This document shows, piece by piece, positions 1-19,109 of a stretch of DNA of 64,000 nucleotides. Every line of letters starts with the position of its first letter. Within the stretch, counting starts at the first letter, position 1. The position numbers and the translations under genes were made by a program. The stretch is from Clostridia bacterium (lineage in GTDB: Bacteria > Bacillota > Clostridia > TANB77 > CAG-465): positions 20,574-84,573 of the forward strand of contig JAZUNZ010000003.1 of NCBI GenBank assembly GCA_045604405.1, in the 5' to 3' direction. The notes beneath the pieces were generated by a model. It made no database searches, was not told where the DNA came from, and saw only the letters and a list, made by a program, of their open reading frames with translations.

Positions 1-1330
1 CTTCTTTTATTTTTTCTTCTGCTTTTCTGGTAATTATTTCTTTTATTGTTCCATTCATTTTATTCATTATTACCTTTAACATGGCTTCAGCACCTTCTAA
101 TGACCAGCTTGTTCTATTCTTTTTCATTCTGTCCCTACATACACAGTACATATGGCTTTCCTCTGAGCCTAGTGATGGTAACTTTTCTTTGTTTTCTTCC
201 AATTGTTCTTCTTTGTAGCCTAATTTATATTGATATCTTATTATGCTTTCTTTGTTGTTCTTCAAATATTCTTCTAATTCTTTTACTTTTTCTAATTCTT
301 CTATTTTGTTGTCCGTTTCTAGTTCTACTTTATAATTATATATTAAACTAAATATGTCTTGAGCTTCCTCGGTGTAAACTATTTCCTGCATCTTCTTTAA
401 ATATTCTTCATCACTTACTGCTAGGTATATTTTCTTTTGGATATGTGCCATATCTAATTGAAATATCTCTTTTGAACCTTCTACTATTGTTCCTGTCCAA
501 TCAGCCCCATCTCCATTTATTACTATATTTTTTATTGTATATTCCTTGTATGTCGTTCCTATTGTAGCATCTTCGATTCTTTTTAATTCACTTGCTTTTG
601 AGGCTGTTCCCACTATTATTTTATTTTTTAATTTAAAATCATTAGTATATCTTGGTGTTTTTCCTTCATGTATTACAGCTATTTTTAATTCAATTCCATT
701 TTTCTTCTTTTTACTTTTTTTCTTCTTAAAATGTTTTACTTTAAATTTCTTTTTCCCTTTATGTTTTTTTGACCTTTGTTTCTTAATATAAATCCCATCA
801 TGCTCGCAAAAAACATACTCTGTTTCTTTGGTTCCTTCGATTTTTCCTTGTTCATACAGTTTTATTTTTTCTTCTTCTAATTTCTTTATTTTTTCTCCTA
901 ATGCTATTACTATATTTCTTACTGCAGTATAGGTTATAATACTATCTGTATCTTCTGAAACTGTTTTGGCTGTTTCTCTATATGATTTTTTTGTTATTTC
1001 TCTCACTATCATTTCTACTACACTTTGAGAATACTGTCCTATATTATTTATTTCTAGTAATTCGTCCAGCAAATAGACATATTTTTTACCACCATTTATT
1101 TCCATTTGATATCTTCTTCTATAAAATTCTATTTCACCAAGTCTAGTTTTTATCGTTGTTTTCTGACTATCTTTTATCTTAAAAATTTCTTTATCTCTAT
1201 ACTTTTTTATTAATTTATCTATTAATTTTAATTCATCTTTGATTAGGTTTCTTCCTAATTCCATCATTTTTTTGTAAGTATTTTCTTCTAAACTATTGAA
1301 ATCCATTTTCTCTTTTGATATTATTTCCAT
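1..1330 (-). CDS. ISLre2-family (UPF0236-type) transposase, C-terminus cut off by the window edge
   Basis: Not in the ORF track because it runs off the edge. Hand translation from the ATG at 1330 gives an uninterrupted frame of more than 440 aa: MEIISKEKMDFNSLEENTYKKMMELGRNLIKDELKLIDKLIKKYRD...TRLGEIEFYRRRYQMEINGGKKYVYLLDELLEI...NGDGADWT...QLDMAHIQKKIY...SWSLEGAEAMLKVIMNKMNG. This matches my memory of UPF0236/ISLre2 transposases common in Clostridia. SD GAGGTG lies 9 nt upstream. Confidence 0.7.
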   Translation of the reverse strand, partial: MEIISKEKMDFNSLEENTYKKMMELGRNLIKDELKLIDKLIKKYRDKEIFKIKDSQKTTIKTRLGEIEFYRRRYQMEINGGKKYVYLLDELLEINNIGQYSQSVVEMIVREITKKSYRETAKTVSEDTDSIITYTAVRNIVIALGEKIKKLEEEKIKLYEQGKIEGTKETEYVFCEHDGIYIKKQRSKKHKGKKKFKVKHFKKKKSKKKKNGIELKIAVIHEGKTPRYTNDFKLKNKIIVGTASKASELKRIEDATIGTTYKEYTIKNIVINGDGADWTGTIVEGSKEIFQLDMAHIQKKIYLAVSDEEYLKKMQEIVYTEEAQDIFSLIYNYKVELETDNKIEELEKVKELEEYLKNNKESIIRYQYKLGYKEEQLEENKEKLPSLGSEESHMYCVCRDRMKKNRTSWSLEGAEAMLKVIMNKMNGTIKEIITRKAEEKIKE

Positions 1331-1398
1331 AAACAAAAGCACCTCACATATATATTGATTTGTAAGCTAAACCAATTATATATTTAGTGCTTTTGTTT
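1331..1398 (-). repeat. 12-bp perfect inverted repeat (AAACAAAAGCAC / GTGCTTTTGTTT) directly upstream of the transposase start
   Basis: Arms at 1331-1342 and 1387-1398. On the minus-strand mRNA the proximal arm covers part of the SD (GAGGTG) and the whole SD-ATG spacer. This could be an RBS-occluding hairpin or part of the IS terminal region. Confidence 0.4.
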
Positions 1399-1459
1399 TT
1401 CTATATTTATTTAAAATCTTTTTTATTTTTCCCCAAATTATTTAACTCATATAATTAGA

Positions 1460-1768
1460 TTAGCATCTTCCTATACATTCAAAAATCAAATTAATTGCAT
1501 CCATAAAACCTATACTATAAAACTTTTCATTTTCATAAGATCCAATTACATTTATTCTATCTATGTAGCTGTCTAAACTATCCTTTACTATTTCTTTAGC
1601 TTTTTCATCATCTGATAATCTATCAATTTTTTCTAATAACATTGTGTAAGTATCATTTTTAGTAACAAGTCTTTTTATTCTTTCTTTATCGGTTTCTGTT
1701 AAAGTACATAAGTTTTCCTCTCTACATTCAAATAATTCATTTAATACGGTTTTGTCTACATTATACAT
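1460..1768 (-). CDS. hypothetical small protein (102 aa), no recognisable domain
   Basis: ORF with a strong SD (AAGGAGGT) 7 nt upstream of the ATG. Acidic, helical-looking sequence with Cys at both ends. Confidence 0.55.
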   Translation of the reverse strand: MYNVDKTVLNELFECREENLCTLTETDKERIKRLVTKNDTYTMLLEKIDRLSDDEKAKEIVKDSLDSYIDRINVIGSYENEKFYSIGFMDAINLIFECIGRC

Positions 1769-1848
1769 ATTTACTACCTCCTTAATTTACTGGTAGTATA
1801 ACGTGCTCAATTTAATTTGTCAGCCCATTTAATTAAATTTTTCTAATT

Positions 1849-1889
1849 TTTTATAAAAGTATTTTTACTATCGTGTATAGTAAAAATAC
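1849..1889 (-). terminator. intrinsic terminator (13-bp stem GTATTTTTACTAT/ATAGTAAAAATAC, then UUUUAU on the minus strand)
   Basis: Perfect 13-bp hairpin at 1859-1889 followed by a T-run on the minus strand. Confidence 0.55.
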
Positions 1890-2040
1890 TCACAGCAAAA
1901 TTTTAATTTTGCGTTCGAATAACCAGGGTAATTTCTTTTACTCTTTATTCGCCAGCATGGCTCATAGAGCCACAAATTGCTGTTTAGTGAAAAATCCCTA
2001 ATACCCTTTTTAGCCCGCTGGGAGAATTTTTTATTTACAA

Positions 2041-2080
2041 AAATAAAAAAGAGAGAAGCGACCTCAGCCAACTTCTCCCC
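2041..2080 (-). terminator. intrinsic terminator (GAGAAG...CTTCTC stem followed by a U-run on the minus strand)
   Basis: Minus strand reads GGGGAGAAGTTGGCTGAGGTCGCTTCTCTCTTTTTTATTTTTG. Confidence 0.6.
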
Positions 2081-2111
2081 CCACTTTCTCGTGGAATTTA
2101 ATTGCATATAT

Positions 2112-2140
2112 ATTATACAATAAATAAAATTTATTGTAAA
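2112..2140 (-). promoter_or_regulatory. sigma-A type promoter, TTTACA - 17 nt - TATAAT
   Basis: -35 at 2135-2140 and -10 at 2112-2117 (minus strand), spacer exactly 17 nt. It lies downstream of the Abi stop codon and points at the structured region. Confidence 0.5.
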
Positions 2141-2188
2141 TACATATCTATAATATTTTATGATTTTTTTTTAAATTTATTATTATTT

Positions 2189-3718
2189 TTATACAATATT
2201 AATAAAAAATTTTTCATCAATACCTGTAAATTGTGTATATCTTTTTGATTCTAAAAATGGTTTATATTTAGATTCTTTAGTAACAACTTTTATTTTATTT
2301 GCTTTTTTTATAATAGAATTTTTTATAGTTTTTAATTGACTATTTTTTTCGTTTAAAATTCTTTTATATGAACTTTTATTCTCAATTTTAGCAATAATGT
2401 CTTTACATTCTAAATCGAATTGTTTTAATTGTTCTATCTCCTCTAGTAATTGAATACAATTTTCTGCATTTTCAATTTCTAATTTTTTCTCGTTTAATAA
2501 AACATTATACTTTATAAATATAGACTTTAATTCATTATAGAAATTTGTATTTTTATCTATATTCTTTAGGATTTTATATATTATATATATTATTTTTGAT
2601 AAATTAAAATTAGTATAATTATTTCTATTAAAATTATCTTCTCCAAAATAATCAGATAAATTTCTCATTAGTTTTGCATTTAAACTTATTTGTTGCTTAT
2701 ATTTTGGTATTGAATTTCCATCTGCAGTTTTTCTATTTTTACTTACCTTCGGTAATTCATATTCAAATGGATATCTTCTCGTTATGTCAAAAGAATCTAT
2801 ATTATAGCAATATATTGGCTGATTGTGTGCAAGCATATTTCTAAATTCACCTAAATAACACAATATTGTTTTAAATGTATTAATTTGTGATTCCTCTTTA
2901 TCTCTAATTTTCTCACTCTTTCCTTTTTTATCCTTAGTTATATTTAATTGAGTAAAAAAGTTTGTACAATTTAAAAATATATTTCTAGAATCTTCCTCCC
3001 TTAAATTTGCTATTGCATAATATGTTTGATTCATTGCTAATTCATTAATTATAATCCAATATGGTACTGTTAAATTTTGTTCTCTTTTTCTTTTTATTGG
3101 TTTTGATTTTGTATTATCATATTTGTCTATTATTAATTTCATAGTATCAAATGCTTTATTTTTTATTGATGATGTATTATAGTTATACATGTTAACTAAA
3201 TAATCTGCTTTAGCATTATTATCATTTAAATATGAGATAAAAATATTTTTCATGCTTTCCTCTATAATCAAAGTATATTTTAAAAGCATTAATCTTAGTT
3301 CATGTTCAAACTTATACATCCTTACAAAGTCACCATATTTTGTTGTATTGCTATACTTATGCAAATGATATTGGATTTGTCTTATGTTTTCCTCTTTTTC
3401 TGTTAATGAATTAGCTTTCAATCCATATTTTTCACATATTTTATCACATATTTTTTCATATAGTTGTTCTGGTTTTACATCTGGTTTTATTTTGAAAATA
3501 TCTCTATAGAAATCGATATTTTTATTTTGTAATATATTATTTCTAATTGTATCTATGTACTCAATATCTTTAACAAATAAATTCTTATATGCATTTACAA
3601 CTTGATAATAGCTATATCTTCTAAATAAAGCCTTTTCACCTTTGTCAAATTTTATTTGCTTTAATTCTAATGTTTCAATTAATTTATTTGTGCTATTAGT
3701 ATTCAAACTTTTTAACAA
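2189..3718 (-). CDS. Abi_2 family (AbiD/AbiD1/AbiF-like) abortive-infection protein, 509 aa
   Basis: N-terminal pattern LIETLELKQIKF...EKALFRRYSYYQVVNAYKNLF, mid motif FEHELRLMLLKYTLIIEESMKN, and C-terminal FRNMLAHNQPIY (RNxxAH, HEPN-like). All are typical of Pfam Abi_2 as I remember it. The exact start is uncertain: the TTG at 3718 abuts the SD, and the TTG at 3706 is an alternative. Confidence 0.8.
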   Translation of the reverse strand: MLKSLNTNSTNKLIETLELKQIKFDKGEKALFRRYSYYQVVNAYKNLFVKDIEYIDTIRNNILQNKNIDFYRDIFKIKPDVKPEQLYEKICDKICEKYGLKANSLTEKEENIRQIQYHLHKYSNTTKYGDFVRMYKFEHELRLMLLKYTLIIEESMKNIFISYLNDNNAKADYLVNMYNYNTSSIKNKAFDTMKLIIDKYDNTKSKPIKRKREQNLTVPYWIIINELAMNQTYYAIANLREEDSRNIFLNCTNFFTQLNITKDKKGKSEKIRDKEESQINTFKTILCYLGEFRNMLAHNQPIYCYNIDSFDITRRYPFEYELPKVSKNRKTADGNSIPKYKQQISLNAKLMRNLSDYFGEDNFNRNNYTNFNLSKIIYIIYKILKNIDKNTNFYNELKSIFIKYNVLLNEKKLEIENAENCIQLLEEIEQLKQFDLECKDIIAKIENKSSYKRILNEKNSQLKTIKNSIIKKANKIKVVTKESKYKPFLESKRYTQFTGIDEKFFINIV

Positions 3719-3787
3719 CTCCTTTATTTATAAGTCTGTTTTTTAACGCATTTATAATATCATATAATTAGTGAAATTTCTACAATT

Positions 3788-4291
3788 TTAACCCTTTTTA
3801 TCAAATAGATTTGCATTAGCATATAAACTTTCAAAAAATTCATCTGGATAATCTCGCCCCTTATATCCTGGATTATAATTTTTTTCTCCCTTTTTATTAG
3901 TTATATTATTATTTCTTATATTATTATCTTCCGTATTTTGATGGATAGCCTGTCCATTTTTTGATGGATACATATGTCCATTATTTAATGGATATGGTAC
4001 ATCATTTAAATAAATTTTTCTCTTAATTATTCGTTGATTTTCATTCCTAATAACGTCTCGAATTATAAATTTTTTCTCCTCTAAATGTGTTATCCAACTC
4101 GATACTGTTTTTCGATTTACACCTAATTTTTCAGCTAAATATTCATTGCTTGCAAAACAATATCCTTCTTTGCATGTAAGAGATGTTATTATTGCATATA
4201 TCAATTTTTCATTTGGTTTTAATTCTTTATTATATAAAACTGTTGCAGGAATTACTGAATAATATCCTATTCTATTTTCATTTTCTTTCAT
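3788..4291 (-). CDS. helix-turn-helix protein, phage/plasmid replication-organiser-like N-terminal wHTH
   Basis: YYSVIPATVLYNKELKPNEKLIYAIITSLTCKEGYCFASNEYLAEKLGVNRKTVSSWITHLEEKKFI is the pattern of HTH_36/DnaD-N-like proteins of mobile elements. Start moved to the ATG at 4291 (SD GGAGTGG). Confidence 0.5.
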   Translation of the reverse strand: MKENENRIGYYSVIPATVLYNKELKPNEKLIYAIITSLTCKEGYCFASNEYLAEKLGVNRKTVSSWITHLEEKKFIIRDVIRNENQRIIKRKIYLNDVPYPLNNGHMYPSKNGQAIHQNTEDNNIRNNNITNKKGEKNYNPGYKGRDYPDEFFESLYANANLFDKKG

Positions 4292-4399
4292 TTTTACCAC
4301 TCCAATTCTAGCAGCATTTTTTTGCATAAAAAAACAGAATATTTCTTTAATATCGAAATACTCTGTAACATAGATGATTACTGCGTTTTATTAAATTAT

Positions 4400-4894
4400 T
4401 TTTGTGGTTGGAAGTTTTTAAGGTCCACAGGCATTGACCTTAACCTACAATTCCCTGCACGTTGGGAAAACGCTCGAGAAATTAAATTTTCTCAAGGCTA
4501 TACAACTTATGCTCCAAGAGACTTTGTTGGAAACTTCCCTCTAGAAGCTCCAGAGTCATTAGCTCTTTATGACTTTACTTTAAATAACCGCTTTGACCTT
4601 ATGCTTACATATCATTCCCAAGGGGAAGTAATCTTTTGGAAATTTTTAGACTATGATCCTCCTTACGCCTTAGAAATAGGGGAAGTATTTGCAAATTTAA
4701 GTGAATATTCACTAGAAGACACCCCATATTCTTCTAGTTTTGCTGGGTTTAAAGATTGGTTTATTCAAAATTATAATTTGCCTGGATATACCGTTGAAGT
4801 AGGATCTGGTACTAATCCTCTACCTATTTCTCAATTTGATGTTATATATGAAGATAATATTGGTATTCTTGTTACAGCCCCATTCTTAATATAG
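4400..4894 (+). pseudogene. 5'-truncated M14 zinc carboxypeptidase (gamma-D-glutamyl-meso-diaminopimelate peptidase-like) gene fragment
   Basis: Only the C-terminal half is recognisable (GIDLNLQFPARWE...LMLTYHSQGEVIFW...GFKDWFIQNYNLPGYTVEVG). The N-terminal HxxE zinc-binding region is absent. The frame upstream of about 4400 is unrelated AT-rich sequence that overlaps the divergent HTH gene start. Confidence 0.6.
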
Positions 4895-4896
4895 AA

Positions 4897-4926
4897 AAAG
4901 TTCCTAGATAATAATCTAGGAACTTT
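4897..4926. terminator. bidirectional hairpin terminator (13-bp stem AAAGTTCCTAGAT/ATCTAGGAACTTT)
   Basis: Perfect 13-bp stem between convergent genes. Confidence 0.6.
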
Positions 4927-4930
4927 AGAT

Positions 4931-5329
4931 TTAAGCTACTGTTACAGCATCGAGGAACTTAGCTTTTTCTTCTTCAGGCAGAAGTTTAAATATTTGTGCA
5001 ATGTCTTCAGAATCGTATTCCTTTGTAGGAACCATAATACGTCTTAACATCTGTGCAAGCTCATCATTGTCGCCCGCATAAAGTTGATATCTGAAAAATT
5101 CAGATATACAATTCATGAAATCTGCATTTACAAAATTCATGTACTGTCTTACATCCTCTTCTGAAACCCCTAGCTTGTTTGCCGTTTCTTCGATGATTTC
5201 ATTGTAAAAGCGCTTTACATCTCTTAAGCCGATTCCGTACCGCTTTTCTTCTAACTCTATAGTAGCAGTCAAGCGACTTAAATCTTCAACCGGTTTCCAC
5301 TTCATTTTAAGTAAATCCATAGTATTCAT
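4931..5329 (-). CDS. hypothetical protein (132 aa), GC-elevated
   Basis: ORF with SD (GAAGGAGAAAAGG) upstream. No domain recognised. Confidence 0.5.
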   Translation of the reverse strand: MNTMDLLKMKWKPVEDLSRLTATIELEEKRYGIGLRDVKRFYNEIIEETANKLGVSEEDVRQYMNFVNADFMNCISEFFRYQLYAGDNDELAQMLRRIMVPTKEYDSEDIAQIFKLLPEEEKAKFLDAVTVA

Positions 5330-5551
5330 TTGCCTTTTCTCCTTCTAAATTATTAGTATTATGGTTAATGCACCATCTCAGGATTGCGCGCCGACATGCA
5401 ATAAAATTATATCACAAACGGCGTCAAATGTAAAGTGTTTATTTGTATTTTATGCCTTTTGGTCATATATTATTACTTTTTGTGCCTTTTTAATGTTTAA
5501 ATAGCTCCTAGATTAATATCTAGAAGCGATTATTTGTTTTATTTTAACATT

Positions 5552-6970
5552 TTACTTTCCAACGTTTTCTAGCATGTCTATATCTATTATTGGCACGTTG
5601 TTCTTTTCTAAAATTGGAATAATATTTTGTTTTATTTCATCAAATTCCATATAATAGAACAAATCTATTTTTTTACCATTATTAAGACTAATTACATAGG
5701 TTGGCAGGTTAATTATTTCCCCAAAATCATTGGTAATTGCTTTTGCACTATACACACAATCAACATTTTCATAAAGAATAGTTTCGCCTTTAATATTTAA
5801 GAAATTTAAATTATCCTTAAATCCATTCTCATAAAAAGAAATGTTAGTATTAGCAGCCAAAACAGATATAACCAAGCCCAATGCTATTACAAATTGCAAT
5901 AATTTAGCCATTATTGTATACGTCTTTTCACCATTTTCTATTTCATCTAAAGCAACAATTGTAGTATAATCTTTTTTAAACATCAACTTATATACACCTC
6001 TTCGTGTAAAAAACGCACTTACAATTGCCGTTAAGAATGCGGGCATAAATACCATAAACGCATCTGCACCGCCAACATATATAGCTCCTTTAGCTATATA
6101 ATGCAGGGAAATATAAAACACTAGAGAATATACAATATACCATATAGGTATAAGGGCAATCCATGATAATATCATCGGAAGCAATTCGATTTTAGCAGTC
6201 TTTAATCTTCTTGCCTGTTGCATGGTATTTAGTTTACCCTCTACAGGAATTTCAATATTATTATCCTCAATGTATGCTATTAATTTTTTCTCATATACAG
6301 TTAACTTGTTGCCTAATTTGTTGTATTTTTTAATAGATTTTTTATATTTTCCATTTATATAGTCTAAGTAACCTTCCATTGTAAATCTAGATATATCCAA
6401 TACATAATATAATTCCAACATTCTCATTAAATGCAAAATATTTTTTGATTCAAATATCTTTTCATCTAACAGTAAAGTCGTCTTTTCATCTACAATCTTT
6501 TCCAACATTGCAATTTGTTCAGCGCTTTTACTTATATCTTGTATTTTATCTTTATATTTTAAAAAAGTTTCTACCAAGTAATTTAACACTTCTATCATCT
6601 TGGTTTCACTAGTAACATAGGGAAATGTATAACATTTAAAGTTGTTATTATCTACTATGTCAAACAAATCATATATAGAATACTCTACTGGTAGTTTTCC
6701 ATCCTCAAACAAAAAACGCATTTCGATAGTAGATTTCGGAATTAGCATGCTTACATTTATTTTATAATCCAATTTCAACACGAACTTTTTAAAAATTATC
6801 CACGCGCCAACTGAATGATATCCCTTTTCAGGATTATTTTTCTTAAAGTATTCTTCAACTCTATAATTTATTACTCCTTCAAGTAAGTTGCTATATTTTT
6901 CTGTTTCTTGTTTGAACGTTTCAACTAATCTCTTAATTAAATCTTCCTTCATAATGTTTTCTCCATACAC
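5552..6970 (-). CDS. hypothetical membrane protein (472 aa): cytoplasmic N-domain, about 3 TM helices, C-terminal domain
   Basis: Long ORF with hydrophobic segments LLPMILSWIALIPIWYIVYSLVFYISL, FMVFMPAFLTAIVSAFF and LLQFVIALGLVISVLAA. No family recognised. Confidence 0.55.
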   Translation of the reverse strand: MYGENIMKEDLIKRLVETFKQETEKYSNLLEGVINYRVEEYFKKNNPEKGYHSVGAWIIFKKFVLKLDYKINVSMLIPKSTIEMRFLFEDGKLPVEYSIYDLFDIVDNNNFKCYTFPYVTSETKMIEVLNYLVETFLKYKDKIQDISKSAEQIAMLEKIVDEKTTLLLDEKIFESKNILHLMRMLELYYVLDISRFTMEGYLDYINGKYKKSIKKYNKLGNKLTVYEKKLIAYIEDNNIEIPVEGKLNTMQQARRLKTAKIELLPMILSWIALIPIWYIVYSLVFYISLHYIAKGAIYVGGADAFMVFMPAFLTAIVSAFFTRRGVYKLMFKKDYTTIVALDEIENGEKTYTIMAKLLQFVIALGLVISVLAANTNISFYENGFKDNLNFLNIKGETILYENVDCVYSAKAITNDFGEIINLPTYVISLNNGKKIDLFYYMEFDEIKQNIIPILEKNNVPIIDIDMLENVGK

Positions 6971-6997
6971 AAAAAGAACCGCTAAAAAGCGGTACTC
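6971..6997 (-). terminator. intrinsic terminator after rplA
   Basis: Minus strand reads GTACCGCTTTTTAGCGGTTCTTTTTGTG. Confidence 0.55.
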
Positions 6998-7000
6998 TTG

Positions 7001-7684
7001 TTATATTTTTGTTGTAATTTTTATTCCAGGTCCCATAGTTGTAGATATTGCAATTGATTTTAAGTAAGTACCTTTTGCTGCGGCTGGTTTTGCTTTAACT
7101 ATAGCATCTAATAAAGTTTCGTAGTTTTCTTTTATCTTTGCACTACCGAATGATACTTTACCAATTATTGTATGTATAATATTGTTTTTATCTAGTCTAT
7201 ATTCAACTTTACCAGCTTTAATTTCGTTAACTGCTTTTGCAGTATCAACTGTAACTGTTCCAGCTTTAGGGTTTGGCATTAATCCTTTAGGTCCTAGTAT
7301 CTTAGCTATTCTTCCAAGTGCCGGCATCATATCTGGAGTTGCTACAACAGCATCAAAATCTAACCAACCTTCGTTAGCGATTTTAGCTATCATATCATCA
7401 TCTCCAACATAATCTGCTCCTGCAGCTTCAGCAGCTGCTGCCTTTTCAGATTTAGCAAGTACTAATACTTTTTTAGATTTACCTGTTCCATTTGGAAGTA
7501 CTACTGTACCTCTTACTTGTTGGTCTGCTTGCTTAGAATCAACACCTAGTTTTATATGCATTTCTATACTTTCATCAAATTTAGCTTTTGGTAATTTTTC
7601 AATTAATGCTAAAGCTTCATCGATTTCGTATTGTTTCGCTTCAACTTGTGCTCTGGCTTCTGTCATTCTTTTGCTCTTATTCAC
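7001..7684 (-). CDS. rplA: 50S ribosomal protein L1
   Basis: Unambiguous L1 sequence ([10 protein letters not shown]...[22 protein letters not shown]...). Confidence 0.97.
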
Positions 7685-7729
7685 GATTTTCCCTCCTTTT
7701 GGTTTTAACGAGTATATTCTCTCCCATAA

Positions 7730-8158
7730 TTATTCAGTAACAACGATCCCCATTGATCTTGCAGTTCCTTTTATCATAGATACTGCTGACTCTAAAGAGG
7801 CTGCGTTTAAATCTTGCATTTTAGTTTTTGCAATTTCTTCAACTTGTGCAAGTGTTACTTTAGCAACTTTATCTTTGTGTGGTTTTGCTGATCCACTCTC
7901 TATACCAGCCGCTTTCTTAAGTAATACTGCTGCTGGTGGAGTTTTTATTATAAACTCAAATGATTTGTCTTGGTAAACTGTAAGCACTGCTGGGAATATC
8001 ATTCCTGCGTCCTTAGCTGTTCTTTCATTGAACTCTTTACAGAATTGCATAATGTTAATTCCTGTAGGTCCTAATGCTGGTCCAACTGGTGGTGCTGGGT
8101 TAGCTTTACCTGCTTCAATTTGTAGTTTAACAACATGAGTAACTTTCTTCTCTGCCAT
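7730..8158 (-). CDS. rplK: 50S ribosomal protein L11
   Basis: [44 protein letters not shown] is canonical L11. Confidence 0.97.
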
Positions 8159-8203
8159 CTTTTTTCACCCCCTTAAATATCTTAACATTTAAAATGTTAT
8201 TAA

Positions 8204-8743
8204 CTATATTTTTTGTATTTGTTCAAAGCCTAGTTCAACAGTAGTTTCTCTGTTAAACATATTAACTTTAACAACAACTCTTTGTTTTTCCTTGTCTATT
8301 GATTCTATAGTACCAGGATAATTGTAGAAAGGTTCTGTTATTATAGTTACAGAATCTCCTACTTCAAAATCTAAATTGATAACTTCATCACCAATTCCTA
8401 AACTTATCATTTCTTTTTCTGTAAGCGGTAATGGCTTATCCCCTGTTCCTACGAAACTGAATACTCCCTTTATGCTCTTTATAACATACCAAGTTTCATC
8501 AGTTAGAATCATTTTCACAAGTACATAACCTGGGAATACTTTCTTTATAGATGTTTTTTGTTTTCCATCTTTTATTTCGATTTCTTCCTCCATTGGTATT
8601 ATAATTTCTTCGATTTTATCTTCAAGTCCACGATTCGCTACAACTTTTTCTAGTGTAGTTTTTACTTTGTTTTCATAGCCAGAGTATGTATAAACAACAT
8701 ACCAATTAGATGCATTTTCTTTTATATCAGTTGCCTCTGACAT
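8204..8743 (-). CDS. nusG: transcription termination/antitermination factor NusG
   Basis: WYVVYTYSGYENKV... NGN plus KOW pattern. Start moved to the ATG at 8743 (SD AGGAGTGAGG), just after the secE stop. Confidence 0.95.
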   Translation of the reverse strand: MSEATDIKENASNWYVVYTYSGYENKVKTTLEKVVANRGLEDKIEEIIIPMEEEIEIKDGKQKTSIKKVFPGYVLVKMILTDETWYVIKSIKGVFSFVGTGDKPLPLTEKEMISLGIGDEVINLDFEVGDSVTIITEPFYNYPGTIESIDKEKQRVVVKVNMFNRETTVELGFEQIQKI

Positions 8744-8754
8744 AAACCTCACTC

Positions 8755-8955
8755 CTAACCTATCCAATTAGATATTAAATCCCATATTTTAGTATCAGCC
8801 ATCTCTAATACAAGGTCAATCCCTAATACTACAGCTGACACTACTATAACTAGTACTAATACCCATAAAGTATTATTTACTATTTGTTTTTTTGTTGGCC
8901 ATACTACTTTCTTAAGTTCAGCCTTTGTGTCTTTTAAAATACCCATAGTGTTCAC
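8755..8955 (-). CDS. secE: preprotein translocase subunit SecE
   Basis: ELKKVVWPTKKQ followed by a single TM helix, in the rpmG-secE-nusG context. The start may instead be the ATG at 8946. Confidence 0.85.
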   Translation of the reverse strand: MNTMGILKDTKAELKKVVWPTKKQIVNNTLWVLVLVIVVSAVVLGIDLVLEMADTKIWDLISNWIG

Positions 8956-8965
8956 ATCCTATTCA

Positions 8966-9115
8966 TTATTTTGTTTCTTTATGTGTTGTGTGTTTTTGAC
9001 AGAATTTACAAAACTTATTTAATTCAACTCTCTCTGTAGTATTTCTCTTATTTTTGCTTGTTTCATAATTTCTTTGTTTACATTCTGTACATGCTAATGT
9101 TATATTTTCTCTCAT
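8966..9115 (-). CDS. rpmG: 50S ribosomal protein L33 (49 aa, missing from the ORF track)
   Basis: Hand translation: [49 protein letters not shown]. This has the CxxC...CxxC L33 signature and SD GGAGGTG upstream. Confidence 0.9.
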
Positions 9116-9158
9116 CTTTACGCACCTCCGAATATTTGCCATTTACATATGCTATACT

Positions 9159-9187
9159 AGTTTACCATAAACAGACAAAAAAGTCAA
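9159..9187 (-). promoter_or_regulatory. putative promoter of the rpmG-secE-nusG-rplKA operon (TTGACT - 17 - TAAACT, with TGG upstream)
   Basis: -35 at 9182-9187 and -10 at 9159-9164 on the minus strand. The -35 sits inside the terminator hairpin of the upstream gene (9181-9213). Confidence 0.45.
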
Positions 9188-9224
9188 CAAAACTATTCAG
9201 TTTTATTGACTTTTTATTTATTTT

Positions 9225-9719
9225 TTAACTTTCAGTTAATTTTACTTTGCCTGTTTCCAATACACTACGTATAAGTCCATCATGTTTACCTGCAACCTTT
9301 ATAAGGGTTGATGCAGAGGTATTGGGATGATCTACGATCATTGCCGCATGTCGATATACGTCTATGTGACGTTCTGCAATTTTTTCAATATCTTCAGAAC
9401 AAACACTGTGATTTTCAAGCAACAAGCCCGCCATTACACAACTACACTCTGCCGCTAACTCGTGGAGTATTTCCTGGGGAGTAGACGAATTTCCGGCCAA
9501 AGAATAGTCTACCCTCTCCTTGTATTTATCATACAAATACTTTAAAGTCCTCTCATCTGCGTACCGGTTTTCAGCAATTGTCTCAGCCAACAGTACTTCA
9601 TTGAATTCAAGCAATTGTTTCAGATTTTCGGCGCTCCTACTTTCTTTTGCCATAATTTCAAGCAACTCATTTGAGCAATGATTCAAATCGAAGCTAATCA
9701 TTTTAATTCCTCCAAGCAT
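9225..9719 (-). CDS. hypothetical protein with HEAT/LRV-like helical repeats (164 aa), GC-elevated
   Basis: Repeated pattern ...N..T..E.L..LA... (AENRYADERTLKYL, GNSSTPQEILHELA, ENHSVCSEDIEKIA, DHPNTSASTLIKVA). About 40% GC against about 30% in the flanks. Confidence 0.45.
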   Translation of the reverse strand: MLGGIKMISFDLNHCSNELLEIMAKESRSAENLKQLLEFNEVLLAETIAENRYADERTLKYLYDKYKERVDYSLAGNSSTPQEILHELAAECSCVMAGLLLENHSVCSEDIEKIAERHIDVYRHAAMIVDHPNTSASTLIKVAGKHDGLIRSVLETGKVKLTES

Positions 9720-9912
9720 TTATATTATATTTAATTGTTTTGCCTTTTGCCAAGAAATTTATTATATCATCAAGATTATCCTCATCTTCTTTTCTCTTAA
9801 TGCTATCAATTAGTTCCTTGGACACATTGTTTTTTCCCGCTTTTGCAATGTTAAGCCACAACAAAGCAACCATTACTGGTATAAACGTTAGTATTATTAG
9901 AACCGCTACCAT
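9703..9912 (-). CDS. small membrane protein (69 aa)
   Basis: N-terminal TM helix. Overlaps the next ORF by 17 nt, which suggests coupling. Confidence 0.4.
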   Translation of the reverse strand: MVAVLIILTFIPVMVALLWLNIAKAGKNNVSKELIDSIKRKEDEDNLDDIINFLAKGKTIKYNINAWRN

Positions 9913-9993
9913 TTTATAATCTCCTTCTAAAGTTTTATTTGGATTGTATTTTTAACTTTGTTATTATACCACAATTACCTTCATATTGCAACT

Positions 9994-10016
9994 AAAACAG
10001 GGCATCGCCCTGTTTT
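9994..10016 (-). terminator. hairpin terminator AAAACAGGGC-gat-GCCCTGTTTT overlapping the amidase stop codon
   Basis: Perfect 10-bp stem. Confidence 0.6.
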
Positions 10017-11814
10017 AACGATATTCTCTATTTATCTGTCTTCTTTTTCTTGCTTGTGTAGTTTTCTTCTTTTTGCCCTTCTTTTTGCTTTTCTTTTTCT
10101 TTTTTAGCTTCGCTTTTATAATTGCAAAAAGAATTAATGTACCAATTATTCCTGCACCTATTTTTATCGCATTCATTTTTTGCTGTTGTTCTTTATCCTT
10201 AATTGCAGCTTCATTGTAATTATTAATTAATGTTATAGCTTCTTGCTCATGATTAGAATATGTATTGTAGTCTCTAAAAAACTCTTGCATATCTTGTTTT
10301 ACATCGCTATATGCTGATTTATTTAATGTTTCTTGATTTTCTTTATATAGTTCAACGAGTCTAGTTACGTCATCGTCTATTCCATACAAGTTTGGTGCAA
10401 GTTTAGACATATTAAATTCATCTTCAGTTACTAGAAAGTCGGATATTGTATAAAGAGTTTTTTCATCTGTTGATTTAGCTACAAATTCTATGCCATATGG
10501 CAAGCCATCTTTTCCAAATCCCATAGGAATAGATATTGCCGGCATTCCCGCGACTGGCGATATTGCGAAACTCGGCGACACAACAGAAGCGTCATTTATA
10601 CTTGTTATCTGGTTTTTAGTTGTAGGATATGCTAGAACATCTACATCATATTTATCCATTTGTGATTCAATATAATCTTCATATTCCTTATGTTTTTCTT
10701 GGTACGTATTTAATTTCGAAATATCATCTTCGCAAGCACCCTCGTAAAGCGGCAAATCTTGTATATATTTTCCAGTCTCTACAAGATCTGAAAAGCTTCT
10801 TTGTTTGCTGTTAGTATTTTGTATGTATTGATTAAAGAAATAGCACATGCTCCAACCGCCAATCGTGCTGTTATAATAGTTATATGCAGTACTGTTATAT
10901 AAATCGTCTATATATATTATTTCTACTCCTTTATCTTTCAAATTGTCTATATTTGTATTAAACAAATCTAATACAACTTCGTCTGTAGAGTTTGCAATAG
11001 GGATGTAACTTAAATTGCTGTCGCCTTCTACAAATTGAGACAATACTCCAATTTTTATTCCTTTTGCATAGTCTTTATACTCTATATATTTGCTCATATT
11101 ATCTGTTAATACATCTAATAAAATAGCATTGTCCGACGTATATTTCGTCATTGGTCCTGCCGTATCTCTTGATGTATCATAATTTATAATGCCTTCTGAT
11201 TTTAACAATTTGTATGTTGGTCTAAGTCCTATTAAATTTGCAGCAGATGCTGGTACTCTTATAGATGAATTGGTGTCTGTTCCAATACCTGCAACAGCCA
11301 TGCCTGTACTTACTGCAACTGCAGTTCCACCAGAGGAGCCATAAGACGTAAGACTGGTGTCATACGCATTTTTAACAGTGCCATATGAGCTTCTAGATAG
11401 CGACGCACTAAAGGCAAATTCACTCATGTTTGCCTTTGCTATAATCAACGCCCCACTATCCAAAAGATTTTGAACTATAGCAGCATTTTGTTTTGGATAA
11501 TTATCCGATAAAGCACTTGCCCCAGCAGTAGTAGGCATTTTTACATAATCTATATTGTCTTTTATTACAAGCGGCATTCCGAATAGCATTGATGTTCTTC
11601 CGCTTTTCTTGTATTGCTCATCCAACTTTTTTGCTTCATCTACTATATTTTCATTTATTGAAATTATGGCATTAAATTCGTCGTTATATTCTTTGATTCT
11701 TTCTAAGTATATCTTTGCAATTGTCTCATAGTTTACGAGTCCAAGATCAACCGCCTCTTGGATTTCTTTTATAGACAATTTTAAAATATCTATTGGTGCT
11801 TTAGTATACTCCAT
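10015..11814 (-). CDS. amidase-signature family enzyme with a C-terminal TM anchor and poly-lysine tail (599 aa)
   Basis: GatA-like amidase signature GSSGGTAVAVSTGMAVAGIGTDTNSSIRVPAS. C-terminus IGAGIIGTLILFAIIKA followed by KLKKKKKSKKKGKKKK. Confidence 0.85.
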   Translation of the reverse strand: MEYTKAPIDILKLSIKEIQEAVDLGLVNYETIAKIYLERIKEYNDEFNAIISINENIVDEAKKLDEQYKKSGRTSMLFGMPLVIKDNIDYVKMPTTAGASALSDNYPKQNAAIVQNLLDSGALIIAKANMSEFAFSASLSRSSYGTVKNAYDTSLTSYGSSGGTAVAVSTGMAVAGIGTDTNSSIRVPASAANLIGLRPTYKLLKSEGIINYDTSRDTAGPMTKYTSDNAILLDVLTDNMSKYIEYKDYAKGIKIGVLSQFVEGDSNLSYIPIANSTDEVVLDLFNTNIDNLKDKGVEIIYIDDLYNSTAYNYYNSTIGGWSMCYFFNQYIQNTNSKQRSFSDLVETGKYIQDLPLYEGACEDDISKLNTYQEKHKEYEDYIESQMDKYDVDVLAYPTTKNQITSINDASVVSPSFAISPVAGMPAISIPMGFGKDGLPYGIEFVAKSTDEKTLYTISDFLVTEDEFNMSKLAPNLYGIDDDVTRLVELYKENQETLNKSAYSDVKQDMQEFFRDYNTYSNHEQEAITLINNYNEAAIKDKEQQQKMNAIKIGAGIIGTLILFAIIKAKLKKKKKSKKKGKKKKTTQARKRRQINREYR

Positions 11815-11932
11815 ATATTACTCCCATACTATATAGTTACCATACTTTATTTGTTTTTGCAATTAATATAAATAAATTTACACAATTTAAATCAAAAAAG
11901 AAACAGTGTCTTGTACACCATTTCTTTTTTTG

Positions 11933-12355
11933 TTATACATATATAGAAACCAGCTTGTCTTTTATAGTGATAGGCAAAATATTATATGCGCCCAGTTCAC
12001 TTTTACTTATCCTTACTATTTCATACAACCCATATTTACTGTCTATATTCATGTTTTGGAATTCTTCTGCACTTCCTTGTTTAATCTTGCCACTTAATAC
12101 AGTTGCAAAATAGAAACATTCTTGTTTATCTAAATCCTCACTATATTCTTCTATCAAAAGTTCTTCAAGCTTAATATCTACATCCAACTCCTCTTTAGCC
12201 TCTCGCACCCCTGCTTGTTCCCATGTTTCGCCCTCGTCAAGATGTCCTCCAGGCAACACATAATATGTTTTTATTCCTCCATTTATTTTCTTAGTCCTTT
12301 TTATGAATATAATATTTTTTCCCTCTTCTATAATAAGTCTTGTGGCTTTTTTCAT
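11933..12355 (-). CDS. NUDIX hydrolase
   Basis: Nudix box GGHLDEGETWEQAGVREAKEELDV. Confidence 0.85.
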   Translation of the reverse strand: MKKATRLIIEEGKNIIFIKRTKKINGGIKTYYVLPGGHLDEGETWEQAGVREAKEELDVDIKLEELLIEEYSEDLDKQECFYFATVLSGKIKQGSAEEFQNMNIDSKYGLYEIVRISKSELGAYNILPITIKDKLVSIYV

Positions 12356-18536: not shown

Positions 18537-19109
18537 ATGAGTAAATTAAAATGGAAGCCAGGAACTATGGTATACCCTTTGCCTCCAGTAATGGTATCTT
18601 GTGGCGACATGGAAAAGAGCAATATCTTAACAATAGCATGGACGGGAATAATCTGTACTGATCCTGCGATGACTTATGTGTCTATTCGTAAAGAAAGATA
18701 TTCTTACGATATTATAAAAGAAAAAGGAGAATTTGTAATAAATCTTGCAAGCAGCAACCTTGCGCATGTAGTAGATTTTTGCGGTGTTAGATCTGGAAAA
18801 AATATCGACAAATTTAAAGAGTGTAATCTTACAAAAGAACCTGCTACAGAAGTGTCTGCCCCTATGATAAAAGAGTGCCCTATAAACATAGAATGTAGAG
18901 TCAAAGAAATAAAAGAACTAGGTACTCATGATATGTTTATGGCAGAAATCCTAGCAGTAAATGTCGATGATAAATATTTAGATGATACTGGAAAATTTGA
19001 CATGGAATCTTGCAATCTTTTAGCGTATTCTCATGGTCAATACTACTCTTTAGGCGAAAAACTTGGCAAATTCGGCTTTAGTGTAGAAAAGAAAAATAAG
19101 AAAAAATAA
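18537..19109 (+). CDS. flavin reductase family protein
   Basis: Flavin_Reduct pattern PPVMVSCG...NILTIAWTG...FVINL. Confidence 0.8.
   Translation: MSKLKWKPGTMVYPLPPVMVSCGDMEKSNILTIAWTGIICTDPAMTYVSIRKERYSYDIIKEKGEFVINLASSNLAHVVDFCGVRSGKNIDKFKECNLTKEPATEVSAPMIKECPINIECRVKEIKELGTHDMFMAEILAVNVDDKYLDDTGKFDMESCNLLAYSHGQYYSLGEKLGKFGFSVEKKNKKK

What the first reader, a model, noticed from the sequence alone, without database searches (positions are those of the whole stretch)
1..4430. Mobile/defence islet abutting a truncated peptidase gene: ISLre2 transposase, orphan 102-aa gene, RNA region, Abi_2 protein, HTH protein
The M14 gamma-D-glutamyl-DAP peptidase-type gene at 4400-4894 retains only its C-terminal half. 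Immediately upstream, on the opposite strand, sit an HTH gene typical of phage/plasmid replication modules, a 509-aa Abi_2 (AbiD/F) abortive-infection gene, a stand-alone promoter/terminator RNA region, a 102-aa orphan and an ISLre2-family transposase. This is the signature of an integrated or decayed mobile element that carries an anti-phage gene and has deleted the 5' half of a cell-wall recycling gene. The Abi protein is about 150 aa longer than classical AbiD/F members, with an insertion between the N-terminal and RNxxAH regions.
Basis: partly seen in the sequence, partly recalled or inferred. Interest (0 to 1): 0.65.

Follow-up and report, generated by a model that had tools for sequence, protein, structure and literature searches.

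The report
Defence island splitting a spore peptidase gene
Window 1-4431 is the right-hand end of a site-specifically integrated mobile element that splits, rather than deletes, a spore-related cell-wall peptidase gene, and its cargo is an AbiF-type RNA-regulated anti-phage toxin with an unusual small-RNA partner.

Summary
The interpretation needs correcting in three places.

1. The M14 gene is not 5'-deleted. It is cut at one exact codon (Gly224 of a 376-aa protein) by an attR site of a large-serine-recombinase (LSR) element: P arm 4406-4429, central GG 4430-4431. The same cut is seen in 10 of 81 surveyed sequences (80 related genome loci plus the window). Complete relatives (L016, L011, L092, L095) keep the N-terminal half beyond the other end of the element. 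Their layout is HTH_36, variable defence cargo, an accessory gene, the LSR. Empty-site alleles coexist with occupied ones in the same metagenomes.

2. The 102-aa "orphan" is a conserved accessory gene of this element family.

3. The "RNA region" holds two separate elements:
- A ~60-nt small RNA gene (2040-2105, promoter 2112-2140) that travels with the 505-aa Abi_2 gene as a nested 1.78-kb cassette (2035-3814). It is still present next to a homologue only 51% identical. It is probably the RNA antitoxin of an AbiF-like type III toxin-antitoxin pair, but it lies downstream of the gene and lacks the Rfam abiF motif.
- A ~150-nt structured motif (1877-2026) that follows the HTH gene across the family and matches nothing in Rfam.

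An ISLre2-type IS (left edge to ~1452) sits where the recombinase region should be. The host is a spore former, and M14 genes carry sigma-K-like promoters, so a skin/SPbeta-like excision that restores the gene is possible but unproven.

The parts
1..1452 (-). ISLre2/UPF0236-family insertion sequence. Transposase ORF runs from 1330 to the window edge (443 aa visible); the right IS end is at about 1452.
   Evidence: Pfam UPF0236 6e-48 and NCBIfam ISLre2 1.9e-54. Contigs from three runs match 1400-1452 and then diverge. Other contigs match from 1459 on with unrelated sequence before it. No second copy in the window or loci.
1460..1768 (-). 102-aa conserved accessory gene of the element family (weakly DUF6809-like), with a sigma-A-like promoter at 1823-1795.
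   Evidence: tblastn homologues: L107 95%, L097-L100 90%, L092/L088 64%, L073 62%, all inside M14-inserted elements. Pfam DUF6809 E 0.011, below cut-off. Promoter.
1877..2026 (-). About 150-nt structured motif of the element backbone. P1 CCAGC/GCUGG closes a junction with hairpins P2 and P3; then P4/P5 and a terminator-like P6. The strand is inferred, not proven.
   Evidence: Starts 20-60 nt after the HTH stop in L016, L088, L091-L094, L097-L100 and L103-L107. Model R1 hits of 115-147 bits occur only there. 11 distinct sequences keep the helices through compensatory changes. 7 pairs with double changes against 2.9 in shuffles, 0/500. No Rfam family.
2035..3814 (-). Nested 1.78-kb Abi cassette (promoter, Abi_2 ORF, small RNA gene), inserted between the HTH stop and the structured motif.
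   Evidence: L016 and L092 join window 3815 to window 2033 with about 60 nt between them. The same cassette, 79-86% identical, sits in unrelated contexts in L081-L087.
2040..2140 (-). Candidate antitoxin small RNA gene. Promoter TTTACA-N17-TATAAT at 2140-2112. About 60-nt RNA at 2105-2040: 5' AUUAAAUUCCA, hairpin 1, GGGGA, terminator hairpin, U-run.
   Evidence: Promoter boxes invariant and hairpins kept with compensatory changes in L081, L083 and L086. Also kept in L108, whose Abi is only 51% identical and sits in a different context. Fold z -2.6 on this strand against -1.1 on the other. No RF03085 match.
2189..3706 (-). Abi_2/AbiF-like HEPN protein, 505 aa from the second TTG (ORF open from 3718), stop at 2189-2191. 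HEPN motif RNMLAH.
   Evidence: Pfam and PADLOC. 214 homologues, mostly 503-505 aa. R289, N290, A293 and H294 invariant in 31 sequences. AF2 pLDDT 89.7; only significant PDB match is 8vz6_A 'PbAbiF dimer bound to ncRNA', E 2.6e-5, TM 0.66.
3788..4291 (-). HTH_36 protein, 167 aa. Resembles the N-terminal DNA-binding domain of replication initiators and DnaD-like loaders. It is the terminal backbone gene next to attR. Its last 8 codons were altered by the cassette insertion.
   Evidence: Pfam HTH_36 6.6e-17. PHROGs replication initiation proteins down to 7.7e-22. 756 homologues. Almost always adjacent to an M14 C-terminal half.
4406..4431 (+). attR: element-derived P arm GGTTGGAAGTTTTTAAGGTCCACA (4406-4429) plus central GG (4430-4431).
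   Evidence: Comparison of attR, attL and intact attB sequences; the reconstructed attP is a near-perfect inverted repeat around GG. Metagenome contigs that match the element diverge exactly after 4431 into another M14 allele.
4430..4894 (+). 3' half of the M14 gamma-D-Glu-DAP-type peptidase gene (Gly224 to the stop). Intact reading frame, followed by a bidirectional terminator at 4897-4926.
   Evidence: tblastn of the intact 376-aa L001 protein: q216-376, 81%. Pfam M14 positions 125-283 of 286. Terminator.

Best explanation
Window 1-4431 is the right-hand portion of an integrative element that a large serine recombinase (LSR) inserted into a fixed site inside a PG_binding-M14 peptidase gene (a yqgT / endopeptidase-I type gene). 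The site lies in the conserved sequence GWKANIxG(I/V)DLNLQFP.

The family backbone runs: attR, HTH_36 (a replication-initiator-like DNA-binding protein), a ~150-nt structured motif, variable defence cargo, a ~100-aa accessory gene (position varies), a 48-aa ORF in some members, the LSR, attL. Insertion separates the HxxE zinc ligands in the N-terminal half from the third His and the catalytic Glu in the C-terminal half, so the gene is off while the element is in place. attL x attR recombination would restore it in frame.

In this genome the only cargo is a nested cassette. It encodes a 505-aa AbiF-like HEPN RNase and a ~60-nt small RNA transcribed from its own promoter just downstream. By analogy with AbiF/AbiFr and AbiFCd/RCd22, the RNA probably binds and silences the toxin, and phage infection would release the RNase.

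An ISLre2-type IS has landed immediately after the 102-aa gene, where relatives have the region leading to the LSR. The element here may therefore be immobilised.

Shown here: gene identities, attR, intact attB, attL in relatives, the cassette boundaries, conservation of both RNA elements, and empty-site alleles. Inferred: RNA antitoxin function, RNase toxicity and anti-phage activity, and the presence of the LSR and the N-terminal half to the left of the window.
For: - Same break point (q215-234) in the window, L008, L011, L016, L020, L022, L023, L031, L038 and L073. All other loci have intact genes.
- L016, L011, L092 and L095 show N-half, element with a 543-554-aa LSR (Resolvase + Recombinase + Zn_ribbon_recom), C-half.
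- attL and attR share the core around GG, and the reconstructed attP is palindromic.
- Abi+HTH contigs matching at >=90% (several closely) join a different M14 allele exactly after 4431.
- One identical HTH protein occurs in at least three host backgrounds.
- An intact M14 allele on the same host flank coexists with the occupied allele in three runs.
- Cargo in relatives: Eco47II and Eco57I-type restriction-modification, ThsB/TIR, AbiEii, KAP-type and YobI ATPases, a Gabija-like pair, NS_2 nuclease.
- Abi.
- Small RNA.
- AbiF as a type III toxin with an ncRNA antitoxin: PMC12373285, PMC12737573, PDB 8vz6.
- Low G+C of the islet.
Against: - The LSR, attL and the N-terminal M14 half of this genome are outside the window, so integrity and mobility here are unknown.
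- The IS may have caused a deletion to its left.
- The small RNA lies downstream of the Abi ORF and does not match the Rfam abiF motif, whereas the characterised AbiFCd antitoxin RCd22 lies upstream (PMC12373285). Its antitoxin role is by analogy only.
- No match in the phage, plasmid or viral-contig collections, so nothing shows how the element moves between cells.
- One family member (L094) does not show an obvious M14 half next to the HTH gene.
Confidence: 0.8

Rival explanations
1. One reading: a decayed islet whose arrival or decay deleted the 5' half of the M14 gene, so the gene is permanently dead in this genome.
For: The 5' half is not in the 64-kb window. An IS sits where the recombinase region should be, and IS elements can cause adjacent deletions. 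L008 has a frameshifted LSR and no 5' half within 10 kb. L073 has a degraded C-terminal half.
Against: The junction is an exact attR, not a ragged deletion end. Every complete relative keeps the 5' half. The C-terminal half here is an intact frame with the His and Glu active-site residues.
Confidence: 0.15
2. A developmentally regulated gene-intervening element, like skin, SPbeta, gin or yin. The element is excised only in the sporulating mother cell, which restores a late sporulation peptidase gene, while the spore keeps the defence island.
For: - The host encodes GerXA and a germination permease. Related hosts carry spoIIR and spo0A.
- B. subtilis yqgT is listed in the sigma-E sporulation regulon (PMC3416734).
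- AC-N16/17-CATAnnnTA (sigma-K-like) lies upstream of 14 of 72 M14 genes, against 0.43% of background windows.
- It has the same architecture as known LSR intervening elements (PMC4191935, PMC5595907, PMC10747680).
- Gene halves stay open in most carriers.
Against: No sigma-E or sigma-K motif upstream of the LSR or the 48-aa ORF; their promoters look sigma-A-like. Empty sites in metagenomes are equally explained by strain polymorphism. Retention of open halves could simply reflect recent insertion.
Confidence: 0.3
3. The 1877-2026 motif works as DNA rather than RNA: a single-strand or double-strand origin, or a binding platform for the adjacent replication-initiator-like HTH protein on the excised circle.
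For: The HTH protein matches replication initiators and DnaD-like loaders. Both strands fold about equally well, z -2.0 to -6.6. The position next to the HTH gene is fixed.
Against: It ends in a terminator-like hairpin in the HTH orientation and has G-U pairs on that strand. Related sequence is present in two libraries labelled transcriptomic, though DNA carry-over is possible.
Confidence: 0.25
4. The 2040-2140 segment is only the 3' UTR and terminator of the Abi mRNA, not a separate small RNA gene.
For: It is co-oriented with Abi and ends in the only terminator after the ORF. Promoter-like hexamers are not enriched in this AT-rich DNA: 28 found against 37.8 expected.
Against: The -35 and -10 boxes and their 17-nt spacing are invariant in five versions, including one whose Abi is only 51% identical. 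The intervening and hairpin sequences change but stay paired. This non-coding block is more conserved than the ORF.
Confidence: 0.2

Closest known systems
Sporulation gene-intervening elements with serine recombinases: skin in sigK, SPbeta in spsM, vfbin in spoVFB, vrin in spoVR, gin in gerE, yin in yabG
   Same: An LSR element is inserted inside the coding sequence of a probably mother-cell-expressed gene of a spore former. The att core is short and flanked by inverted repeats. Excision would restore the frame. gin also carries restriction-modification genes and no phage genes.
   Different: The target (a yqgT-like M14 peptidase) is not among the targets named in the papers read. The cargo is a swappable set of defence systems. 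No sporulation-specific promoter or recombination directionality factor was identified. Regulated excision is untested.
AbiF/AbiFr and AbiFCd/RCd22 type III toxin-antitoxin systems (PDB 8vz6; PMC12373285)
   Same: Abi_2 domain, invariant Rx4H HEPN motif, fold match to PbAbiF, and a tightly linked small structured RNA with its own sigma-A promoter and terminator.
   Different: The protein is about 200 aa longer than PbAbiF (297 aa), with extra N-terminal and C-terminal helical regions. The RNA lies downstream rather than upstream, is a single ~60-nt two-hairpin RNA, and does not match Rfam RF03085.
SCC-like LSR islands that carry anti-phage defences in staphylococci (PMC11470126)
   Same: Non-phage LSR-mobilised islands at a single conserved chromosomal site, with variable defence cargo.
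   Different: Insertion is in the middle of a coding sequence and inactivates it. The recombinase family, host clade and backbone (HTH_36 plus structured motif) are different.
ISLre2-family insertion sequences
   Same: The transposase matches UPF0236 and the ISLre2 model over nearly its full length.
   Different: Only one end is visible. The score is just under the NCBIfam cut-off because the ORF is cut by the window edge.

Membership tests
LSR integrative / gene-intervening element | Element encodes a large serine recombinase (Resolvase + Recombinase + zinc ribbon) | not testable with these tools
   Not in window 1-4431; it would lie to the left of position 1. Present in complete relatives L016, L011, L088, L092, L095 and L103/L104.
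LSR integrative / gene-intervening element | attR/attL share a short core flanked by imperfect inverted repeats, and an intact attB exists in uninterrupted genomes | tested here: met
   attR at 4406-4431. attL in L016 and L011. attB in about 70 intact genes. The reconstructed attP is palindromic around GG. An independent break occurs exactly after 4431.
LSR integrative / gene-intervening element | Precise excision restores the target reading frame | tested here: inconclusive
   Joining attL and attR in silico restores GWKANIxGVDLNLQFP. An intact allele on an identical host flank coexists with the occupied allele. However, excision and strain polymorphism cannot be told apart.
LSR integrative / gene-intervening element | Sporulation-specific (mother-cell) excision | not testable with these tools
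   Only indirect evidence: spore-former host and sigma-K-like promoters on M14 genes. No such promoter near the LSR.
Abi_2 / AbiD / AbiF HEPN toxins | Abi_2 profile match above the curated cut-off | tested here: met
   60.6 bits against 25.6. PADLOC AbiD 2.8e-12. PHROG abortive infection protein 6.6e-18.
Abi_2 / AbiD / AbiF HEPN toxins | Conserved Rx4-6H HEPN catalytic motif | tested here: met
   FRNMLAH. R289, N290, A293 and H294 are invariant in 31 homologues.
Abi_2 / AbiD / AbiF HEPN toxins | Fold similarity to a solved AbiF | tested here: met
   Foldseek 8vz6_A E 2.6e-5, probability 1.00, TM (target) 0.66. It is the only hit below E 1.
AbiF type III toxin-antitoxin (protein plus ncRNA) | Cognate ncRNA with the abiF motif (Rfam RF03085) upstream of the gene | tested here: not met
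   No RF03085 hit at E<=10 in 1780-2200 or 2025-2125, nor at E<=1 in 1-12000. Only about 70 nt lie upstream of the ORF. A different conserved small RNA lies downstream.
AbiF type III toxin-antitoxin (protein plus ncRNA) | RNA neutralises the toxin; the system protects against phage | not testable with these tools
   Needs expression and phage assays.
ISLre2 family IS | Transposase reaches the NCBIfam ISLre2 equivalog cut-off | tested here: inconclusive
   185.4 bits against 200. The ORF is truncated by the window edge. Pfam UPF0236 164 bits against 24.3.
ISLre2 family IS | Terminal inverted repeats and target-site duplication | not testable with these tools
   Only the right end (~1452) could be placed, from metagenome contigs. 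The left end is outside the window.
M14 gamma-D-Glu-DAP peptidase (YqgT / endopeptidase I type) | Complete catalytic domain with HxxE, the third His and the catalytic Glu | tested here: not met
   Only profile positions 125-283 are present. The HxxE ligands lie in the missing N-terminal half (compare L001). The fragment alone cannot be active.
Any Rfam family (for both RNA elements) | Covariance-model match | tested here: not met
   Searches give only chance-level hits.

The most novel reading that the evidence does not exclude
A widespread family of LSR defence islands in gut Clostridia uses a sigma-K-type sporulation peptidase gene (yqgT-like M14) as its attachment site and is excised in the mother cell to rebuild the gene. 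That would add a new target, and a defence-island lifestyle, to the skin/SPbeta class. In addition, its Abi cargo would define a new arrangement of the AbiF-ncRNA toxin-antitoxin (the lineage ancestral to Cas13): a downstream, non-abiF-motif RNA partnered with a 505-aa toxin. The backbone would also carry an undescribed ~150-nt structured RNA.
Probability: 0.25. Interest if true: 0.8.

Novelty: new variant of a known kind. Interest (0 to 1): 0.62.

Why it matters
- It replaces a "gene decay" annotation with a reversible, site-specific gene split. The split recurs in many uncultured gut Clostridia and marks a dedicated hot spot where defence systems are exchanged.
- If excision is tied to sporulation, it links anti-phage island carriage to spore development in gut commensals.
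- The Abi cassette suggests that AbiF-type RNA-controlled HEPN toxins have more RNA partners and gene layouts than the single Rfam abiF motif captures. This bears on how Cas13 guide RNAs arose.
- The ~150-nt motif is a candidate new RNA (or origin) family. It has clear covariation and a fixed genomic address, so it is easy to test.

Tried and rejected
- Exact-protein look-ups for the 132-aa and 102-aa proteins found nothing. The source genome is not in the collections, and the closest species in the genome collection has only 84% identity in M14.
- BLAST of the islet against the plasmid and phage collections: no match.
- Viral-contig scans for the RNA motif and for the Abi protein or profile: nothing. 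The element is not recognisably viral.
- tRNA scan: none, so there is no tRNA attachment site.
- Inverted and direct repeats within 1-7000 gave no IS ends or target duplication. No second IS copy.
- RNAalifold on the plain MAFFT alignment missed most helices because the indels were mis-registered. The covariance-model realignment stayed partly mis-registered, so per-sequence constrained folds were used instead.
This prevented a direct search for attL-attR skipping joints or circle junctions.
- A search for sigma-E or sigma-K motifs upstream of the LSR and the 48-aa ORF was negative.
- The idea that M14 naturally starts near 4400 (gene fission) was rejected, because N-terminal halves are found at the other end of the element.
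- The 79-aa ORF 1868-2107 was rejected as a gene. It has no family hit and overlaps both conserved RNA elements.


Full report
**What is in the sequence**

On the minus strand of window 1-4430 lie, in order:
- An HTH_36 gene (4327/4291 to 3788).
- A long Abi_2 gene (3718/3706 to 2189).
- 420 nt without a credible ORF.
- A 102-aa gene (1768-1460).
- A transposase gene that runs off the left edge (1330 to 2).

Profile searches confirm each identity:
- UPF0236 and ISLre2 for the transposase.
- Abi_2 at 60.6 bits, PADLOC AbiD and a PHROG "abortive infection" family for the 509/505-aa protein.
- HTH_36 for the 179/167-aa protein.
- Peptidase_M14 profile positions 125-283 of 286 for the plus-strand ORF ending at 4894.

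G+C is 18-23% across 2000-4000, against 33-34% in the M14 and host DNA.

**The M14 gene is split at a recombination site, not eroded**

A scan of one genome per species returned 80 relatives of the M14 fragment. The closest is L001, at 84% identity. It has an intact 376-aa PG_binding_1 + M14 gene, with rplJ-rplL divergent upstream.

I compared that intact protein with all loci and the window by tblastn. The gene is interrupted at the same place (query residues 215-234) in the window and nine loci, and is continuous in the rest.

In L016 the two halves are 8 kb apart and in L011 3.9 kb apart. The intervening DNA encodes a 548-554-aa protein with Resolvase, Recombinase and zinc-ribbon domains, which is a large serine recombinase.

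Aligning the junctions gives the attachment sites:
- attB: ...GGTTGGAAAGCAAATATnnnnGG|TATTGAyTTAAAT...
- attL and attR share the core around GG.
- The reconstructed attP, GGTTGGnnnnTTTTAAAATCCACA-GG-TGTGGATTTTAAAAACTyCCAACC, is a near-perfect inverted repeat.
- In the window the P arm is 4406-4429, the central GG is 4430-4431, and host sequence (GGC ATT GAC = G-I-D) resumes there.

The apparent "GWK" just upstream of the fragment belongs to the P arm, which mimics attB. It is not residual gene sequence.

Independent support comes from faecal and gut metagenomes. Their contigs match window 2200-4431 at >=90% identity (several closely), then diverge exactly after 4431 into a different species' M14 sequence.

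**The element family**

The HTH protein has 756 homologues. In almost every context recovered, its gene lies next to an M14 C-terminal half.

Complete elements (L088, L092, L095; L103 and L104 extend only to the LSR) have this layout: M14 C-half, HTH_36, a conserved non-coding motif (absent in L095), variable cargo, a 93-107-aa gene, a 48-aa ORF in some members, the LSR, M14 N-half.

Cargo differs from element to element:
- Eco47II-type and Eco57I-type restriction-modification.
- ThsB/TIR proteins.
- AbiEii.
- AAA_13, YobI and KAP-type ATPases.
- A Gabija-like TOPRIM-ATPase plus UvrD pair.
- An NS_2 nuclease.
- NikA-like relaxosome proteins.

One identical HTH protein sits in at least three different chromosomal backgrounds.

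For the L092 element, three runs contain contigs 99% identical to the host flank that run straight from the C-terminal half into the N-terminal half (...FPSGWKANFN). This is an intact, empty-site allele beside the occupied one. It shows gain or loss of the element at the exact site, but cannot separate active excision from strain polymorphism.

The 102-aa "orphan" has 62-95% identical homologues inside these elements. It resembles DUF6809 only weakly.

**State of the element in this genome**

The window begins inside an IS. Contigs from three runs match 1400-1452 and then diverge. Others match from 1459 onward with unrelated sequence before it. This places the right IS end at about 1452, directly after the stop codon of the 102-aa gene.

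In L088/L092 and L103/L104 the DNA after the corresponding 93-107-aa gene leads to the 48-aa ORF and the LSR. The recombinase module here is therefore at least displaced. Whether it and the M14 5' half survive is unknown. They are not elsewhere in the 64 kb.

**The Abi cassette**

Relative to L016, L092 and others, window 2035-3814 is a clean 1.78-kb insertion between the HTH stop and the conserved motif. It also replaced the last codons of the HTH gene.

The same cassette, 79-86% identical, occurs in unrelated places:
- An integrase and methylase island (L081).
- Inside a split EPSP-synthase-like gene (L083).
- Directly against a P-arm-like site without an HTH gene (L086).

The protein belongs to a large subfamily of constant length, 503-505 aa, with an invariant RNxxAH. 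An AlphaFold model (pLDDT 89.7) has a single significant PDB neighbour, 8vz6, "PbAbiF dimer bound to ncRNA".

AbiF proteins are now known to be HEPN RNase toxins of type III-like toxin-antitoxin pairs. A cis-encoded structured RNA silences them. In the C. difficile system that RNA lies upstream of the gene and carries the Rfam abiF motif RF03085 (PMC12373285, PMC12737573).

Here there are only about 70 nt upstream of the ORF, and no RF03085 match anywhere. Instead, about 50 nt after the stop codon there is an invariant TTTACA-N17-TATAAT, followed by a ~60-nt RNA: 5' AUUAAAUUCCA, hairpin 1, GGGGA, terminator hairpin, U-run.

This block is better conserved than the ORF in L081, L083 and L086, with compensatory changes in both hairpins. 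It is also present after a homologue only 51% identical in a different genomic context (L108). There both hairpins have changed sequence and length, but the promoter boxes, the flanking single-stranded motifs and the pairing are kept. It folds well only on the Abi strand.

I therefore read it as the cognate small RNA of this long Abi_2 subfamily, most probably its antitoxin. That function is inferred by analogy and has not been shown.

**The second RNA-like element**

Window 1877-2026 (minus strand) is a ~150-nt motif. In relatives it begins 20-60 nt after the HTH stop.

Eleven distinct versions keep these helices:
- A closing helix CCAGC/GCUGG.
- Two internal hairpins, for example GGUGU/ACACC versus UGGUCC/GGACCA versus UGGCUC/GAGCCA.
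- A second domain, for example CGAAUAA/UUAUUCG versus CGAAUG/CAUUCG versus GAAUUUUGG/CCAAAAUUU.
- A terminator-like hairpin.

A covariance model finds it only at this address. Even on an imperfect alignment, double-sided changes exceed every shuffle: 7 pairs against 2.9, 0 of 500.

It matches no Rfam family. Related sequence appears in two libraries labelled transcriptomic.

Both strands fold equally well. Because the neighbouring protein resembles replication initiators, a DNA-level role such as an origin remains a live alternative.

**Is this a sporulation "intervening element"?**

Evidence in favour:
- The window encodes GerXA and a germination permease. Related hosts carry spoIIR and spo0A.
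- B. subtilis yqgT, the M14 homologue, is listed in the sigma-E sporulation regulon (PMC3416734).
- A sigma-K-type AC-N16/17-CATAnnnTA lies just upstream of 14 of 72 M14 genes, including distant Lachnospiraceae, against 0.43% of background windows.
- The design matches skin, SPbeta, vfbin, vrin, gin and yin (PMC4191935, PMC5595907, PMC10747680). None of those papers names this target.

Evidence against: the LSR and the upstream 48-aa ORF have sigma-A-like promoters, and no mother-cell motif was found.

I give regulated excision about 0.3.

**Verdict**

The finding is real and more structured than described. It is the attR-proximal part of a recurrent LSR defence island in a sporulation-type peptidase gene. 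It carries a nested AbiF-like toxin and small-RNA cassette, and an IS interrupts it.

Each component belongs to a known kind. Three things appear new:
- The target gene.
- The downstream RNA that lacks the abiF motif.
- The ~150-nt backbone motif.

Noticed in passing
window 4931-8158; L001 8155-10465: rplK-rplA (7001-8158) are followed by a 472-aa and a 132-aa protein of unknown family and then by the convergent M14 gene, instead of rplJ-rplL. In L001, rplJ-rplL lie divergently upstream of the intact M14 gene. The ribosomal L11-L1 / L10-L7/L12 cluster therefore seems to be split by a variable insert in this clade.
   Followed up: partly
window 8204-31658 (one or more of the 20 ORFs scanned): Strong matches to spore germination protein GerXA (1e-95) and an endospore germination permease (7e-44), so the host is an endospore former. 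The individual ORFs were not mapped.
   Followed up: partly
window 1795-1823 and 4368-4385; L092 ~10400-10510; L103 ~18750-18850: The promoter of the 102-aa gene shares a GAGCACGTTAyA block with the LSR promoters of relatives. An ATAGATGATTAC block near attR recurs in the LSR 5' leaders. These may be common operator sites of the element.
   Followed up: no
L092 9780-9900; L103 18150-18200: Direct repeats of the form TTCATTTTACCCGTCATAnTTTT...GCTGTTAAGGTTA lie between the ~100-aa gene and the 48-aa ORF/LSR in complete elements. That region is displaced by the IS in the window.
   Followed up: no
L092 3984-4528 in run X26: Contig depth over the HTH and motif region is 2000-8000, against 9.6 for the host flank. 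A closely related element is far more abundant than this host: either many hosts carry it or it exists as an extrachromosomal form.
   Followed up: no
L083 3221-11081: The Abi cassette sits at the end of a ~6-kb insert between fragments of an EPSP-synthase (murA-like) gene, next to the ftsA-ftsZ region. This is another gene split by an element, with no recombinase recognised by Pfam.
   Followed up: no
L081 1-16289: The Abi cassette lies in an island with a tyrosine integrase, a C5 methylase, DUF6339, two DUF6809 genes and a serine recombinase broken into three ORFs.
   Followed up: no
L094 6892-7184: An 84% identical HTH gene followed by the structured motif, but with no recognisable M14 half upstream. 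A P-arm-like TTTAAAATCCACA is present in the opposite orientation. This may be a secondary site or a rearrangement.
   Followed up: partly
window 4897-4926: A 13-bp perfect hairpin between the convergent M14 and 132-aa genes, probably a bidirectional terminator.
   Followed up: no
runs X39 and X26, loose ends at L092 4478-4495: Variants of the structured motif with a different 5' helix (for example ...UUCCCUCGGAGAGCCAAAAAGGGUAUUAGGGCG). The family is broader than the 11 versions analysed.
   Followed up: no
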